In this document: one piece after another, positions 12,756 to 60,474 of the stretch
Position numbering within the stretch: position 1 is the stretch's first letter
Layout: each line of letters opens with the position of its first letter
Source of the DNA: Octopus vulgaris
Taxonomy: Eukaryota
DNA length: 64,000 bases
Reading direction: 5' to 3'
NCBI GenBank assembly: GCA_951406725.2
Contig: OX597817.1
Span: 51,398,001 to 51,462,000, forward strand
Translations under genes and position numbers: made by a program
Notes under the pieces: model-generated
Seen by the model: only the letters and a program-made list of their open reading frames with translations
Told to the model about the DNA's origin: nothing
Database searches by the model: none

Positions 12756-12849
12756 TAATAATAATAATAACAACAACAGGACATAAAAAAGGCGTCTTTC
12801 GACTGGGGACGAATTGAATTCAGCTGGCGTGATTGTTTTTTCTCACCAC

Positions 12850-13200
12850 CTTCCGCTTATGCACCTTCTCTAAGTACGTTGATGACATCCTTATCAACAC
12901 AACCTCCAGGGATAAAGCCATTAACATACACCGGACCTTCAATAACATCGACATAATAATCAAATTCGAGATTGAACATCTAGACGAGCCGGGAACTCTG
13001 TCTCTGCTCGACTTTGAACTCAAGATCAGAGAGCAAGACTCCATGTTTACCAAGTTCTATAAAAAAACCGCTAGCAGAAAAGAATTTCGTCCACTACCAA
13101 TCAGCCTTACCAACCAGAGCCAAAGAAACGAGATTGCACGAGTAAACAATATTAGCAGCGAAGTAACCACTTCGTATAATGCAAAACAGAAAAGATATAA
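12850..13200 (+). pseudogene. Penelope-like element RT C-terminal fragment
   Basis: KYVDDIL...IKFEIE...LSLLDFEL...FYKK motif order typical of PLE RT (YxDD, IKFTxE, xxFLD, YRKPT). Confidence 0.75.
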
Positions 13201-14878: not shown

Positions 14879-14927
14879 CTAAGACCGACGTCAGTTTCGG
14901 TAATTTTCGTGGCCATCATCAGTTAAG
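14879..14927 (-). ncRNA. Type I hammerhead, minus-strand copy (weakened stem II)
   Basis: CTTAA-CTGATGA-T-GGCCA..TTACC-GAAA-CTGACGTCGG-TC-TTAG. Confidence 0.75.
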
Positions 14928-15023: not shown

Positions 15024-15073
15024 TTTAACTGATGACGGCAACGGAAATTGCCGAAACTGACGTCAGTCTTAAG
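15024..15073 (+). ncRNA. Type I hammerhead, canonical core, GUC site (predicted cut after 15068)
   Basis: TTTAA-CTGATGA-C-GGCAA-CGGAAA-TTGCC-GAAA-CTGACGTCAG-TC-TTAAG; stem III is the 12-nt palindrome ACTGACGTCAGT. Confidence 0.88.
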
Positions 15074-16344
15074 AATTCTTGGTCGGCATTTTTCAGACAA
15101 TTATAGTCACTGTTAGCGTATATGTTTTCATTCGTGTAACTTAACAACAGCATTAGATCACTTTAGTTTTTATTTCTAACAATGTAGGTATTTTTAATAC
15201 CCTCATCACATTAAATAACAATTATAATTCTCTTTGGTGAAACGCTTCAACCATACATACATACATACATACACCGAAAGAGTTCTACACAGTTCCTCTC
15301 AGGCAAGTTCACTCACAAAATATTTTTCGCCCCAGTGCTATAGAAGAAGTCACCTGGTCATGCTACTCCACAGTTACTGAACCCGATACCACGTGGTCGC
15401 AAAGTGATCTTAATCACACAGCCATGCCTGCGCCAGAAGTATCACATTTGGATGTTAACCGATTAACAATACAGGAAAATAAAATTGTAAAGATATTACA
15501 TTCAAAATCTATAATCGAGAATGCTATACGCCATAATCATATTCATTCGGAAAACAGATCCTTGACTTCTGGAATTGAATCATTATAAAATACCTGAATA
15601 TGTAGAAAATATCATTATGATATAAATTTCTGGCTGAAATATTTGTCATACAGGCAAAATTATTTAATGACATGATAAAATATCCAGAAACAAAACTTGA
15701 AGCTACATCATACCCAATTTTAAGAAAAACAGGCAAAAATATAATCTACAGAGATATAAGGTTGTCTTCAGTGTACGAAAGTGTACGAAAACTTGAGGGA
15801 AATAATAACCAAAGGAAGCAATAACTGAAGGAAAAATAAACTTTCTCTGAGAAGAAAACTAGAAATGCGGTGAAGTCCAATATAGGGATAAAGATCACTT
15901 CCTGGTCAATAAAAACTGATTGAATATCTGGAGGCTGAAGGATTTAATGCATTGAGTACCAGTGATAGTAAATAAGGAAACTTAATATTTTTTCGTCAAG
16001 CCAGCAAAAAGGAACAAGAAATAACGTAAGGAAACTTGAAAATAAATAAAATATTCTTACATTGAGGATAGGAAAAGGAGTGGACAGCTTAAAAAAGAAG
16101 TAGAAGAAATCAAATAACTAAGAGTTATATATTTTTATATAAAGTGAGTGTAGGAATTCACAACGAATCTATAAAGTGGAAATCATGTTTATCCGCTCAA
16201 AATTTTACTACCCTTCACTGCCGAAAGCAGTTTTATATACCAGTTTATCTTTTGTTGTGATAGATATTCCAGGTAGAATTAACATAACTTTGGTTTAATA
16301 TAAGACAGAGAAAGATAAAGAGAAGTTGGAAGATATATTTAAGT

Positions 16345-16481
16345 ATTATTTACATTTGACGGATATTTGTCCTCGTCTTGTTTGTTGTTAACACAACGTT
16401 TCGGCTGATATACTATCCAGCCTTCTTCAGGTGTCTTGGGGAATTTCGAACGTGGGTTCTCATTCCTAAGGTATTCTTCGA

Positions 16482-16514
<33 letters not shown>

Positions 16515-16615
16515 TATTATTGTTGTTGTTGTTGTTGTTTAGGCCACTGCTTGGAATCGAACTCAGAATCTTGAGGTTAATAGCCCATACTCTTAACCAC
16601 TACGCCATATGCCCG
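16345..16615 (-). mobile_element. SINE-like element: tRNA-like head, (AAC/AAT)n, hammerhead, tail (family E)
   Basis: Minus strand A box TGGCGTAGTGG and B box GTTCGATTCC at 16615-16541, followed by the hammerhead at 16434-16391; body shared with 33236-33360, 41670-41790 and 59910-60122. Confidence 0.75.
16391..16434 (-). ncRNA. Minimal type I hammerhead (family E)
   Basis: ACAC-CTGAAGA-A-GGCTGG-ATAGTATA-TCAGCC-GAAACGTT-GTGT. Confidence 0.85.
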
Positions 16616-17042
16616 TTGACAAATATCCGTCGAATGTAAATAATGTACATAATTCCTCATCCCTTAAATATAGAACTGTGTTATTTAAGTATTGTTGATT
16701 ATGTTATTGGTATTGAAGGTAAAACATTCTCTGTATGGAGGAGCACCATCTCCAGGTTTTGGACATGATAATCCACCCTGCATTTTTCATTGATTTCCTC
16801 AAACAATTTTGTTAGATATAATAATACATAATCATAATGAATTACTGCGCTCCCGGTGCTCAATAACGTTACTGCTTTAGGTGAAAATGTAACTATAAGT
16901 TAGCTGCTTTCATAGGACAAGATGAAACCTTGTGACAGATTAATTTAATCTCTTCTTGGTTTTGTGATTTTGTCCAAGTTCTCAGCCCTATTTTTGACCT
17001 GTTGCGATTATATCACTTAACTATTTACAACGATACAGCGTA

Positions 17043-33185: not shown

Positions 33186-33267
33186 TGAAGCTGCTCGTGT
33201 GCGGTGTAGGGAGAAGCAATGGCTCTATGTACCGCCCGAAAATACCTTAGGTTCGAAATTTCCCCAA

Positions 33268-33313
33268 AACACCTGATGAAAGCTGGATGGTATATCAGCC
33301 GAAACGTTGTGTT
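33268..33313 (+). ncRNA. Minimal hammerhead (family E)
   Basis: AACAC-CTGATGA-A-AGCTGG..TCAGCC-GAAACGTT-GTGTT. Confidence 0.8.
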
Positions 33314-33434
33314 AACAACAAACAATATGAGGACAAATATCCGTCAAATGTAAATAGTGTACTTAGTATTACAGGTTTACACTTTTATTGCCTCCAAAGT
33401 ATTCTCCATTTGAAGCAATGCATTCGTCCAGACA

Positions 33435-41340: not shown

Positions 41341-41690
41341 AGATACATACATACATGCATACACACACATACATACATATATACATACATGGATACAGAT
41401 AGGTTAAACGGAGATCATCATAATATCTTTTCATCTTTCTATACACAACCTGTACATTAAGGAATCTCTTTTAACCGCAATATATGAAGCTGTAATCATA
41501 CTTAACTTGTATTGTTATAAGACAGGAATTTTTAAAAGTCATTCATAAGAAAGTGTCTCAAAACTTTACTGTGACTGTGACGAAAATTTATGTTGCATTA
41601 AAATACTATCTGCAATGGGATTGGTTCCACTAGAAAAGATTCCGCTTAATGTATATCAGTAAGCGATAGCTGGTTCGAAATTCCACCAAG

Positions 41691-41734
41691 ACATCTGATG
41701 AAGGCTGGATGGTATATCAGCCGAAATGTTGTGT
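41691..41734 (+). ncRNA. Minimal hammerhead (family E)
   Basis: ACAT-CTGATGA-A-GGCTGG..TCAGCC-GAAATGTT-GTGT. Confidence 0.78.
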
Positions 41735-41991
41735 TAACAGCAAAGAAGATGAGATAAATATCCGTCAAATGTAAATAATGTAAATAATGATCACCAAGGA
41801 TTTCTAGTCGTGTTGTTGCTGCAAGTTTTTATATTTTATGACGATGTGGACCAACATATTCATTCTTGATACACGTTGACAGATTCGAATGTGAATATGC
41901 TAATTGCTGAGGTGTTTCGTAACAAGAGAACAAACTTGTACTTTGCGACAAATATGTGTTCATAATTCACTCGATTCATGAGTGCAAACCT

Positions 41992-50236: not shown

Positions 50237-50292
<56 letters not shown>

Positions 50293-50293
50293 G

Positions 50294-51384
50294 GGCCGAC
50301 CCCCGAACTATACGGTCGCTATATCGACGACTGCGTAGGTGCCACCTCCCTTTCCCGTGAACTTCTCTGCCAATTCATCTCTTTCCTTTCCAACTTTCAC
50401 CCCTCTCTTCAATTCACCTCCACCATCTCCAACACCTCTGTCAACTTCCTTGACATCTCTCTCCGCATCGATCACCCCTCCAGCTCTCTCACCACCACCG
50501 CCTTCTTTAAACCTACGGATTCCCACCTCTATCTCAACTTCTCTTCCTCCCACCCCTTCGACACCAAACGAGCCATCCCCTACTCCCAGTTCCTCCGCCT
50601 CCGACGTTTGTGCAGCCGCGACCAGGATTTCGAGACCCAATCTCAATACCTGGCCCGCATGTTCAGACTCCGAGGTTACCCACCCACACTCCTCTCTGAT
50701 GCCCTCACCCGCGCCCGTCGCATCGACCGCACTACCGCCCTGTCTCCTTCCCCCCGCCCACCCCCCAACCGCACCCCCTTCCCCCTCCTTTTCCACCCCT
50801 CTACCCTACCCCTTCGTCGCAAGATACTACGTGCCTTCCGTCGCCTCCAGCTTGATCCCACCACCCGCCCCATTTTCCCTAACCCACCCCTGTCCTCTTT
50901 CAAACGAGCCCGCAATCTGCGTGACCTCCTGGTCCACAGCACCCTCTCTCCTTCCCCCTCAGCCCCACACGGATCATTCCCTTGCTCTAGATCCCGCTGC
51001 AACACTTGCCCCTTCATCACCAACACCACCGCTGTCACCGGCTCCAACCTGCATACTGTACGCATTAGGCACTCTTTTACGTGCACCTCGTCTGGCCTTA
51101 TTTACTGCATTAAATGCAACCTATGCGGGATGCTGTATGTAGGTCAGACGGGACGCCGGTTGTCCGACCGTTTCACTGAACACTTGAGGGACGTTCGCCT
51201 ACACTCTTTTTCTCCCGTCGCACGCCACTTCCGCTCGGCCGGCCATTCCCGAGATGACATCTCAGTGTTTGGTCTCGCCCCCCACAATGGTCGCCCACTT
51301 TCCAGGCTCCACTTGGAGCAACGCTACATCTTCACCCTACAAACTACCACCCCACACGGACTTAACACAGCCCCCTCCTCTTGA
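50294..51384 (+). CDS. Penelope-like element (Neptune-type) ORF, 5'-truncated: RT C-terminus, Cys-rich linker, GIY-YIG endonuclease
   Basis: RYIDD, FHPSLQFT, VNFLD, FKPTDSHLYL, SSHP, PYSQFLRLRRLCS, RGYP, CSRSRCNTC, LIYCIKCNLCGMLYVGQTGR..RFTEH..HF..H..E..GLN; no stops. The N-terminal part of the listed ORF is (TA)n read-through. Confidence 0.93.
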
Positions 51385-57523: not shown

Positions 57524-59909
57524 TCGTGCCATCCTTAAATTATGTGAATGCTACGTTTTCCATTAAATTGGAATAAATTGACATGAATTATATTCCTTTT
57601 GAACACTTGTAGCTCAGTACGTGCGTGGAAAAGTTAGAAAAGTATGAGTAGGGCGGAAATACGCAAGTACAGAATTGCTGTGTAGTAAGGAATGTGTGTA
57701 CTGCTTTGTCCACGACAAATTCCTTGTGGAAGTTTGGTGGCGTGAATGTTTAAATGATCTGAGAGCTATATCAACGGAACGCAAGTTCGTACGTCCTCCC
57801 ATGTTGGATATATCAAAGGATACAGGCCAGAATAATACAGACCAGCTCTTCCTAGAGATAAAAGTGGGTTTTGTAGGGGGGCAACACTACAATCAAGAAA
57901 AGAATAAAATTACTAAAGTATCGATGGCAATTTAAAGCCAACGAGACAGAGATGAGGGCCTTACGTGATTCAGCGAAATCCGAAATGGAATTGCAAGCTC
58001 GACTCCCCTATCGACCACTATGATACAACGCAGAATCGAGACTAGTGGAGGAAAGACGTCGATAACCTATGCTTCATCGCGTGCAAGAGCCCAAGTAAAT
58101 ATTGAAGCCAGCGAGATACAAGGCACAAAGGCTATTATAGTATCAAGGTCGCTCGCCTATGTTACTTTGGGCCGATTTAAAGCAAATGCATTTGTGGCGA
58201 AGGTAATAGTTATCATTGTGTGTGGTGCTTCAATTATTAACTTATAGAAAGCTGTTTGATTGTGCATCTGTTCTGTGGCAGATGGGAAAGATAGTCTCTG
58301 GCTGTAAGCAGATAACTCTCACGCAAAATATAACATCGAATTTTCAGATTTCATTTTATCTATTTAAGAAAGGTGGCTTAAACTAGGTTTGTGAGAGAGA
58401 AAATTGAGAATAATATTTTTGAAGCTGTAAGTTAGCGTATTTTACAATGTGGGGATTTTGCTTGATATTCTTTGCATATGAAGGGCTTTCAGCTTTTAAT
58501 TTACCTCCCAAACGCTCGAAAAACATGTACGAAAAATATATTAGAACTGATAATCTCATTTAGCAATAAAACAATCAAATGATTGACAAGTTTATTGCAT
58601 CTCACTGTTTTCAGCCAAGGAACTGAAGATTAAATGCTGACTAAAATATTCTCATCTTTAATTATATTATTTCCGTTACATTTCTATAAATAGGTCATCT
58701 TCCATTGGTTTAGCAAAAATGATTTTAGCATATTAGACCCATAGATATGAATATATGAGCGACTTTAAGCCTATGCACGCGCATGCGTGTGTCCATGTTT
58801 GTAGGCGTATTACTTTATATATATATGCCTATGTGTGTATACGTATGTGGCGTATCCGTGCCTTTACTTATTTATTATGTATGAGGAAGGTCACAAGGTG
58901 AAGGACGGAAAGTCGTAGATCCGAGGTTCTGTTTGTTTTAGATTTAGAAGCGTATTCGACATTAAGGCGTCATTCCTCTAATGGAAAATAATACTAATCA
59001 ATAAGAATTATCTGCTAAACCATAAATCCTTCGAGCTATAGGTCTCTGTTTATCATTCCCGTCTATCACACTAAGATGTTAAACAAAAGATTTAAAGCAT
59101 AATTTTATCTAAGCTATTCAAATAATACAAATACATGCTGAGCAGTCTTGGATGGAGGAATTAATAGAACCGGAGAAAACATTTTCTGTCATTCAGTTAT
59201 GGCTTTTAATATTTTATTTTCTAGCTTTGCTTCTCGTTCAGATCGACTTTGACTGCATAATTGTTAAGTTGTTAGTATAAGAACCTTCTAAGTTCAGAGG
59301 TCGATATATAATAGATAATGTTACGGTAGCCATGCTCGGTATGACAACAATAGAACGAATGGAAACAGTTTATAAGTTTATACATTTAAACATAATTAGT
59401 TTCACTATCTATGTACCGCAAATTAGTGTATATTGTCCTGCTGTGTTGTTTCTATCTTTTTTCTCCTATTTTATCGGGCACGTAATTTGATTTCCTCATT
59501 ATATAATTATTTTATAAATGAAGCTGGCGCCTGTCAATATTTTTTCATCTTAGCTTGTCGAGCCCTAGGAATCATAAGGCCTGCTACTTTGACACAAAGT
59601 TTACCAAAACATCAATGTTTTCCTTGAACGGTACGTTATCCTATCGACCCGAAAGGGGTGAAACGTCAAACTCATCCTAACACTTGGCTGGTACATTATT
59701 CTATCGACCCGAAAGGGATGAAACGTCAAGCTCATCTCGGCAAGGTTTTAACTTAGAACGTTAAAGAGTCGAAAAATACTCCTAAGCATTTTGTCCGCCG
59801 CACTTAAGATTTTATCAACTCACTGCTTCACCTTTATCATTAACCGGTTTTAATTTTGCTTTGCAGTAATTTGTCTGTAATTTACGGAACCGGAAATATT
59901 ATCCTAGAT

Positions 59910-60122
59910 TATACAGTTCTATATTTAAGAGATGAGGAATTATTTACATTATTTACATTCGACGGATATTGGTCCTCATCTTGTTTGTTGTTAACGCAAC
60001 GTTTTGGTTGATATACCCTCCAGCCTTTATAAGGTGTATTAGGGAACCCAGTTTCGAAATTTACCCAACAACAAACAAGTTGAGGACAAATATCTCTCAA
60101 ATGTAAATAATGTAAATAATTA
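59910..60122. mobile_element. Family E element, minus copy with dead hammerhead plus an inverted 3' fragment
   Basis: Matches 16345-16470 and 16617-16680; core reads CTTATAA..AAAACGTT. Confidence 0.75.
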
Positions 60123-60474
60123 CTCTAGATTGTTTTAACTGTTATTATTGGCTGAAACGTTAGTACGCTGGACAAAGTGCTTAGCGTCATTTCGCCCATC
60201 CTTACGTTCTGAGTTCAAATTCAGCCGAGATCAACTTTGTCTTTCATCCTTTCGGGGTCGACAAATTAAGTACCAGTGAAACACTGGCATCAATATAATC
60301 GACTACTCCCTTCCTGCCAAATTCCAGAGTTTGTGGAAATGATTATTTACCCGAAGAATAACAAGAACACTTTCCTGGCTAAGGAGCACCCCATATTATT
60401 CGATGCTGTGAACCTAGGGCAAAACATTAGTCCCTGCTTCTGTACCCTACTATAAAAATATAATTTTCATATAG

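What the first reader, a model, noticed from the sequence alone, without database searches (positions are those of the whole stretch)
16345..16680. SINE-like retrozyme: tRNA-like Pol III head upstream of a hammerhead, multi-copy family
Seen on the minus strand: CGGGCATATGGCGTAGTGGTTAAGAG...GAGTTCGATTCCAAGCAGTGGCCT (A and B boxes), then (AAC/AAT)n, a linker, an intact minimal hammerhead and the tail GAGGACAAATATCCGTCAAATGTAAATAAT. An inverted copy of the tail sits at 16617-16680. The same hammerhead and tail occur at 33236-33360, 41670-41790 and 59910-60122, giving 4 copies in 64 kb. Known analogue: the Schistosoma SM-alpha repeats combine Pol III boxes with a hammerhead. Inference: a self-transcribing, self-cleaving non-autonomous element mobilised by PLEs, given the inverted-tail signature. 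Only this copy shows the head.
Basis: partly seen in the sequence, partly recalled or inferred. Interest (0 to 1): 0.85.

Follow-up and report, generated by a model that had tools for sequence, protein, structure and literature searches.

The report
Penelope retrotransposon with tRNA-derived promoter
This repeat is the terminal piece of a protein-coding Penelope retrotransposon that carries a tRNA-derived head, likely an RNA polymerase III promoter, just before its start codon and hammerhead ribozyme motif; that likely explains its many SINE-like short copies and may mean the whole element is made by the tRNA polymerase.

Summary
One 12-nt target-site duplication encloses the whole insertion. 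All 29 other head loci tested carry the body or tail downstream. About 22,000-26,000 loci are estimated genome-wide.

It is not a free-standing retrozyme. The unit is the pseudo-LTR of an autonomous Penelope/Poseidon element (RT + GIY-YIG):
- The head sits about 28 nt after the ORF stop in 28 of 30 endonuclease loci.
- Linker, hammerhead and tail are the first ~40-50 codons of the ORF.
- The inverted arms and one-sided 35-nt extension (45 of 48 pairs) are known Penelope signatures.

The new part is the tRNA-Arg-like head inside an autonomous element's pLTR:
- Short copies start sharply just before it (14 of 16 within -6..+5).
- The 2.6-kb unit has no TTTT terminator on its sense strand (P about 0.01-0.08, depending on the control).

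Best reading (inferred): transcription, likely by Pol III, starts at the head and runs into the ORF; internal reverse-transcription priming copies the 5' pLTR back to that start. Hammerhead cleavage appears unused (1 of 54 arms starts at the cut). Polymerase identity is untested.

The parts
16336..16347 (.). Target-site duplication, left copy (12 nt, overlapping the element end by about 3 nt)
   Evidence: the same 12-mer lies at 16682-16693
16345..16389 (-). 'Tail' = ORF codons ~25-40, ending at the first inferred RT start site, without the 35-nt extension
16390..16435 (-). Penelope-type minimal type I hammerhead inside the ORF: helix I 5 bp, extra A after core, helix II 6 bp, palindromic AACGUU in place of helix III; predicted cut between 16395 and 16394
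   Evidence: definition from PMC4209133
16461..16463 (-). Inferred start ATG of the Penelope ORF; this copy has a 1-nt shorter T/C run downstream, so its frame is broken
   Evidence: homolog N-terminus match
16484..16539 (-). (AAC/AAT)n spacer of variable length; lies in the inferred 5' leader
16540..16616 (-). tRNA-derived head (closest to tRNA-Arg among those tested); A box 16607-16597, B box 16564-16553; this copy starts at -2 relative to the tRNA +1
16618..16678 (+). Inverted, 5'-truncated second arm carrying the 35-nt extension (ORF nt ~122-154)
16682..16693 (.). Target-site duplication, right copy
33238..33356 (+). Headless copy: hammerhead plus tail
41673..41788 (+). Headless copy: hammerhead plus tail
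59905..60125 (.). Headless two-armed copy: minus-strand arm with decayed hammerhead and extension, short plus-strand arm without extension

Best explanation
The repeat is a solo pseudo-LTR of an autonomous Penelope/Poseidon retrotransposon whose pLTR carries a tRNA-derived head that likely acts as an internal Pol III promoter, so that the short copies likely arise when reverse transcription starts inside the head-initiated RNA and runs back to its 5' end.

Shown from sequence:
- The unit is ORF (RT, GIY-YIG) - stop - about 28 nt - head - (AAT)n - ATG - hammerhead - tail - rest of the ORF.
- Insertions are often head-to-head, with the 35-nt extension on one arm and a duplication of about 9-14 nt around both arms.
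- Short-copy 5' ends pile up at -6..+5 of the head.

Inferred:
(1) TFIIIC/Pol III starts about 6 nt before the tRNA +1 and reads into the ORF, which has no T4 terminator.
(2) As in the anole element PAc, the protein nicks both strands and primes at two internal sites, here about ORF nt 121-130 and nt 154. This gives the one-sided extension.
(3) Priming in the 5' pLTR gives a ~250-300-nt copy ending at the RNA start, often with a few bases of fold-back. Priming in a 3' pLTR gives 5'-truncated copies with ORF.
(4) The uncleaved RNA is the template. Hammerhead cleavage about 70 nt after the ATG would cut the start codon off the ORF and is more likely a slow, dimer- or protein-dependent off-switch than a replication step.
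For: Structure:
- The head follows the GIY-YIG end in 28 of 30 loci.
- Upstream pLTRs run straight into the ORF in L190, L209, L185 and L194.
- The peptide read through the hammerhead aligns with the N-terminus of intact homolog P0005 (39% over 198 aa, E 7e-36). RVT_1 hit E 2e-9. The close homologs carry RVT_1 and PF26215.

Insertion signatures:
- Extension on exactly one arm in 46 of 51 raw pair rows; 45 of 48 after removing 1 duplicate and 2 cross-pairings.
- Flank duplication of 8 nt or more in 33 of 50 two-armed insertions, against 1.2 for shuffled pairs.

Defined 5' end:
- Of 29 copies picked on the body alone, 20 reach the head. Four end inside it over 70 nt; 14 of the remaining 16 end in the 11 nt -6..+5, 8 exactly at -6 (binomial P 4e-19 under constant truncation).
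- Genome-wide, only 297 of 1,526 exact head starts keep the 8 upstream Penelope bases exactly. My rough divergence correction raises this to about 28%.

Terminator avoidance:
- 0 T4 runs in the 2,615-nt column majority, against 4.5 expected (P 0.008); Phe codons TTC 16: TTT 5.
- Natural copies obs/exp 0.21, against 0.89 for other Penelope-like loci of this genome and 1.39 for metagenome ones.

Mechanistic precedent: PMC11167929.
Against: - No direct transcription evidence exists.
- The 5' pile-up coincides with a natural GCCC-AC-GGGC mini-hairpin that could itself cause fold-back truncation.
- T4 absence is one ancestral observation, not many. It is not significant under a shuffle that keeps codon usage (mean 2.1, P 0.08). 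The in-script yardstick had a frame slip, so the codon tests are approximate.
- A and B boxes are no more conserved than their neighbours among copies, and SINEBase calls boxes only an indication.
- Pol III RNAs are uncapped (recalled), and Kojima argues that autonomous partners of Pol III TRIMs must use Pol II.
- Some insertions carry ORF 3' sequence upstream of the 5' pLTR (L209, L193, L194), so longer read-through templates also exist.
- The hammerhead shows no covariation within the family.
- No intact full-length copy was seen; long copies average 91% identity to the majority.
Confidence: 0.68

Rival explanations
1. Ordinary Pol II Penelope element with a fossil SINE head in its pLTR. Short copies are 5'-truncated products, and the pile-up at the head is a fold-back hot spot at the GCCC-AC-GGGC hairpin.
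For: Most -6 copies show a few bases of fold-back at this hairpin. The bases upstream of the head in long copies resemble a decayed inverted head. Heavy truncation and inversion are normal for Penelope-like elements. The T4 test is borderline under one control.
Against: Many 5' ends fall at -5..+5, where the hairpin is incomplete: 6 of 14 body-selected and 13 of 29 head-selected. One arm ends at -6 with no fold-back (L052). T4 and TTT depletion is absent from control Penelope loci.
Confidence: 0.2
2. One reading: an independent non-autonomous SINE lineage or retrozyme with its own short master copies, which self-cleaves or circularises and borrows the Penelope protein.
For: It meets the SINEBase sequence criteria (short, dispersed, more than 100 copies, at least 60% to a tRNA). 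Short copies far outnumber ORF-bearing ones (1 of 11-13 sampled loci). One allele (G at body position 8) was in 23% of short-class arms and 0 of 25 long 3' pLTRs.
Against: No fixed difference separates short and long copies. The G8 allele also sits in the upstream pLTR of long copy L190, and the body-selected set was biased toward it. The commonest junction keeps the ORF frame (TTTCCCC in 42 of 57). No tandem arrays were found. 1 of 54 starts lies at the cut. In PAc the template needs ORF sequence beyond the priming sites, which short copies lack.
Confidence: 0.1
3. The head is an unrelated SINE that inserted next to a hammerhead copy by chance.
For: Only 1 of 4 window copies has the head.
Against: One target-site duplication encloses head and body. 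29 of 29 other head loci have body or tail downstream. 28 of 30 ORF ends are followed by the head.
Confidence: 0.01

Closest known systems
Penelope/Poseidon-clade PLEs, especially PAc (Poseidon of Anolis carolinensis; PMC11167929)
   Same: RT + C-terminal GIY-YIG ORF; pLTR overlapping the ORF start; hammerhead cut site inside the ORF; 30-40-nt tail on one end; inverted 5'-truncated arms; no sign that cleaved RNA is the template.
   Different: A tRNA-derived A/B-box head and an (AAT)n spacer sit in the pLTR, copies start sharply at that head, and the unit lacks T4. None of this appears in the PAc text I read (parts 1-2 of 4).
Schistosoma Sm-alpha / Sj-alpha SINE-like hammerhead repeats (seen only through review PMC6765202)
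   Same: Pol III-type promoter combined with a type I hammerhead in a short repeat.
   Different: Those are described as tandem and non-coding, with the promoter left at the 3' end after cleavage and a hammerhead that cleaves in vitro. Here the unit is part of a coding Penelope element, is dispersed or head-to-head, and has a minimal Penelope hammerhead.
Non-LTR retrozymes (PMC7761336; bioRxiv 10.64898/2026.07.22.740005)
   Same: Type I hammerhead, related to Penelope pLTRs, non-coding short copies.
   Different: They are defined by tandem units and circular RNAs and are said to lack promoters. This family is not tandem and has a promoter-like head.
TRIMp3: Cassandra, Helenus, Ajax (PMC10886601)
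   Same: A small-RNA-derived Pol III promoter inside a terminal repeat, proposed to arise by SINE insertion.
   Different: Those are non-autonomous LTR elements under about 1.3 kb. Here the host is an autonomous, coding Penelope element.
tRNA-derived SINEs (SINEBase definition, PMC3531059), including octopus OK/OR1/OR2 (seen only as a citation; tRNA-Arg origin of OR1/OR2 is recalled)
   Same: tRNA-like head, short dispersed copies, high copy number.
   Different: The partner is a Penelope element that itself carries the head. The 3' end is an internal ORF site rather than a LINE tail. I could not compare sequences with SINEBase, Repbase or Dfam entries.

Membership tests
Penelope/Poseidon PLE | Single ORF with RT followed by GIY-YIG endonuclease | tested here: met
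   RVT_1 E 2e-9; GIY-type C-terminus in natural copies; homologs up to 66% identical with RVT_1 + PF26215. Pfam GIY-YIG itself did not score on the decayed copy, and no tree was built.
Penelope/Poseidon PLE | pLTRs in partial tandem around the ORF | tested here: met
   L190, L209, L185, L194 upstream; 28 of 30 downstream
Penelope/Poseidon PLE | Inverted 5'-truncated arm and a 30-40-nt tail on one end only | tested here: met
   45 of 48 pairs
Penelope/Poseidon PLE | Minimal type I hammerhead in the pLTR (long helix II, extra base after A9, G10.1-C11.1, palindromic helix III) | tested here: met
   (91% of cells paired, no covariation) against PMC4209133
tRNA-derived SINE | Short, dispersed, at least 100 copies | tested here: met
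tRNA-derived SINE | At least 60% identity to a tRNA over at least 60 nt | tested here: met
   62-66% to tRNA-Arg over 75-77 columns
tRNA-derived SINE | Transcribed by Pol III from the internal promoter | not testable with these tools
   Only indirect: 5'-end pile-up and T4 absence
tRNA-derived SINE | Non-autonomous lineage with its own source genes, distinct from the partner | tested here: inconclusive
   No fixed differences between short and long copies, only frequency shifts in biased samples
Non-LTR retrozyme | Head-to-tail tandem units each with a hammerhead | tested here: not met
   0 of 11-13 sampled loci
Non-LTR retrozyme | Self-cleaved monomers or circular RNA as template | tested here: inconclusive
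   1 of 54 internal arm starts at the cut argues against cleaved templates; circles could not be tested

The most novel reading that the evidence does not exclude
An autonomous, protein-coding Penelope retrotransposon transcribed end to end by RNA polymerase III from a captured tRNA-derived promoter. Its 2.6-kb unit has been purged of T4 terminators, it is translated from an uncapped RNA through an (AAC/AAT)n leader, and it sheds tens of thousands of SINE-like solo pLTRs that record its start site. This would be a direct route from a Penelope element to a SINE.
Probability: 0.35. Interest if true: 0.92.

Novelty: new variant of a known kind. Interest (0 to 1): 0.72.

Why it matters
SINEBase defines autonomous retrotransposons as Pol II transcripts and Pol III promoters as the mark of non-autonomous SINEs. 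TRIMp3 work assumes autonomous partners cannot use Pol III. A coding Penelope element with a tRNA head and no terminators would break that rule and show how a SINE can arise from a Penelope element.

Even if Pol II is the enzyme, the family gives tens of thousands of natural products that map where a Penelope RNA starts and where reverse transcription primes. That tests the PAc model at genome scale. It also warns that some 'SINEs' in repeat libraries of such genomes may be Penelope ends.

Tried and rejected
Family and fold scans:
- Rfam (gathering, whole window; E-value up to 10 on 16300-16720) and ARAGORN: no hits.
- Head cloverleaf: not supported.
- Covariation in the hammerhead: none among 22 distinct rows (one search had helix II one column off and is void).
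- Pfam found nothing on the first two window ORF tries.

Expression:
- No RNA holder is listed.
- Four runs guessed to be RNA, held only as contigs, cover the pLTR and part of the ORF start. They cannot show starts, strand, cleavage or level, so they are not used as evidence.

Close relatives' DNA:
- Not found. The metagenome scan gave 8 distant loci at 36-44% identity, with no A/B-box pattern hit. The viral scan gave none. The prokaryote genome scan gave one weak, irrelevant hit.
- 30 other Penelope-like loci of this genome: 1 A/B-pattern hit, upstream of the RT match, none downstream.

Other:
- Loci for the second hammerhead family could not be cut out, so its partner is unknown.
- Three look-ups of earlier findings returned nothing.
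- RNase P processing as the source of the 5' end was considered and judged less likely, because the mode is -6 rather than +1 and the cloverleaf is lost.
- The T4 test on only the last 364 codons was not significant (P 0.10-0.27).

Full report
Observation. Three more hammerhead-tail copies lie in the window. The genome is 2.8 Gb in 227 contigs. From its size and microsatellite content I infer an octopus, which guided my literature searches. Exact-pattern counts give 5,200 hammerhead and 1,526 head matches, with zero for reversed controls. In 140 evenly spaced 10-kb stretches I found 11-13 family loci, which scales to 22,000-26,000 loci (95% range 11,000-44,000).

The head belongs to the element. 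All 29 other best head loci have at least part of the body or tail downstream on the same strand. In the window, one 12-nt duplication (16336-16347 and 16682-16693) encloses both arms and the head. Such duplications of 8 nt or more flank 33 of 50 two-armed insertions, against 1.2 for shuffled pairs. Three natural heads are 62-66% identical to tRNA-Arg of this genome (27 distinct tRNAs of 8 anticodon types), although the cloverleaf is lost.

What it is part of. Four of 29 head loci continued upstream, and one led into a Penelope GIY-YIG region. Searching with that region gave 30 loci; 28 have the head right after it, about 28 nt past the stop codon. Searching with the ORF's 5' part gave loci in which head, spacer, hammerhead and tail run directly into the ORF. 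An ATG 26 nt upstream of helix I opens a frame through the hammerhead and tail. That peptide aligns with the N-terminus of an intact 847-aa homolog. The 'SINE' is therefore the pLTR of an autonomous Penelope/Poseidon-type element, and its hammerhead and tail are coding. The hammerhead fits the Penelope minimal type of PMC4209133 (read parts 1-2 of 4). The most even two-allele column within it is the free core position N7. There is no covariation within the family. The 35-nt extension is on exactly one arm in 45 of 48 pairs (46 of 51 before removing one duplicate and two cross-pairings). This matches the one-sided tail described for PLEs (10.1101/2021.04.23.441226, passages) and explained by two internal priming sites in PAc (PMC11167929, parts 1-2 of 4). 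In PAc the hammerhead cut site also lies inside the ORF, needs protein, and is not needed for insertion. Here only 1 of 54 internal arm starts falls at the cut.

What is unusual: the 5' ends. Among 29 copies chosen on the body alone, 9 have no head (one weak 18-nt hit dropped). Four end inside the head, 14 end in -6..+5 (8 exactly at -6), and 2 end at -14 and -18 (P 4e-19 against constant truncation). Genome-wide, 297 of 1,526 exact head starts keep the upstream Penelope bases. Position -6 is 13 nt before the A box, a plausible Pol III start (established knowledge of tRNA gene leaders, not tested). It is also the edge of a 4-5-bp hairpin, which is the main rival explanation.

What is unusual: no terminators. 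The column majority of the whole 2,615-nt unit has no run of four T on the sense strand: expected 4.5, P 0.008 by base shuffle; P 0.011 and 0.044 by two codon models; P 0.08 when codon usage is kept. The yardstick had a frame slip. Natural copies have 0.41 runs per kb, as expected for decay from zero (0.35), against 2.2 and 4.3 per kb in control Penelope loci. A-rich long ORFs in the sampled stretches and the window had 117 runs against 101 expected. The copies descend from one ancestor, so this is a single, moderately significant observation.

Mechanism (inferred). Transcription starts at the head of an upstream pLTR and runs into the ORF. The protein primes internally at about ORF nt 121-130 or nt 154. 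Priming in the 5' pLTR copies back to the RNA start and yields the short class, which needs no separate SINE master. In PAc the template needs ORF sequence beyond the priming sites, which short copies lack, so they are probably dead ends. The two arms of one insertion differ at N7 in 7 of 28 cases (21 agree; 14 expected if independent). This suggests the second arm is often copied from a second RNA molecule, in line with PAc's two-strand nicking and predicted dimer; the sample is small. Against the Pol III reading: there are no transcript data, some templates extend upstream of the 5' pLTR, and an uncapped RNA must be translated. A likeness of the spacer to unstructured CAA-rich viral leaders is recalled and untested.

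Comparison and novelty. It is a member of the Penelope-like elements. It works like a SINE in having a tRNA head and many short copies, but a separate SINE lineage is not shown, and the retrozyme definition (tandem units; bioRxiv 10.64898/2026.07.22.740005, part 1 of 5 and term search, with no mention of tRNA or Pol III; PMC7761336, passages) is not met. Schistosoma Sm-alpha (seen only through passages of PMC6765202) and TRIMp3 elements (PMC10886601, passages) are the nearest analogues of a Pol III promoter beside a ribozyme or in a terminal repeat; both are non-autonomous. Ten full-text searches listed no paper whose title or abstract start describes a Penelope element with a tRNA-derived promoter. 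Passages of two cephalopod repeat surveys (PMC13282606 with its supplement, PMC8967140) and a mollusc SINE paper (PMC4758252) do not describe it; SINEBase (PMC3531059) was read as passages for definitions. I could not search Repbase, Dfam or SINEBase sequences, subscription papers (Ohshima and Okada 1994, Ferbeyre 1998, Lunse 2016: seen only as citations) or bioRxiv supplements. The family may already sit in a library as an unclassified SINE or Penelope entry.

Verdict. A real, abundant feature: a new variant of Penelope-like element with a captured tRNA head. The structure is shown, the head-defined RNA start is likely, and Pol III transcription of the whole coding unit is possible (about 0.35) and directly testable.

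Noticed in passing
window 14894-14922 (-) and 15029-15057 (+): A second, unrelated hammerhead-like repeat in head-to-head arrangement, with a longer palindromic helix III region; 597 first-look candidates genome-wide. Its autonomous partner is unknown.
   Followed up: partly
window 50290-51381 (+): C-rich 364-codon open fragment of another Penelope-like element (RT end, Cys linker, GIY-YIG at E 0.004), Neptune-like by my reading; not related to the head family.
   Followed up: partly
window 12833-13195 (+): RT fragment of a third Penelope-like family; 150 scored matches in the genome, used as the T4 control.
   Followed up: partly
two-armed insertions, e.g. L117, L018, L055, L059: The two arms of one insertion differ at the non-CpG N7 position in 7 of 28 cases, which suggests two RNA templates per insertion.
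   Followed up: partly
L027 and other long copies, about 18 nt upstream of the head: These bases resemble a decayed inverted copy of the head start, as if the head was captured together with its own fold-back.
   Followed up: no
L034, L056, L025, L047: The (AAT)n spacer is often expanded or interrupted by other repeats, splitting head from body by 200-430 nt.
   Followed up: no
family alignment: CpG positions decay several times faster than others, which points to germ-line methylation of the copies.
   Followed up: no
L036: Two near-identical insertions 1.4 kb apart that share upstream flank, probably a local duplication rather than two insertions.
   Followed up: no
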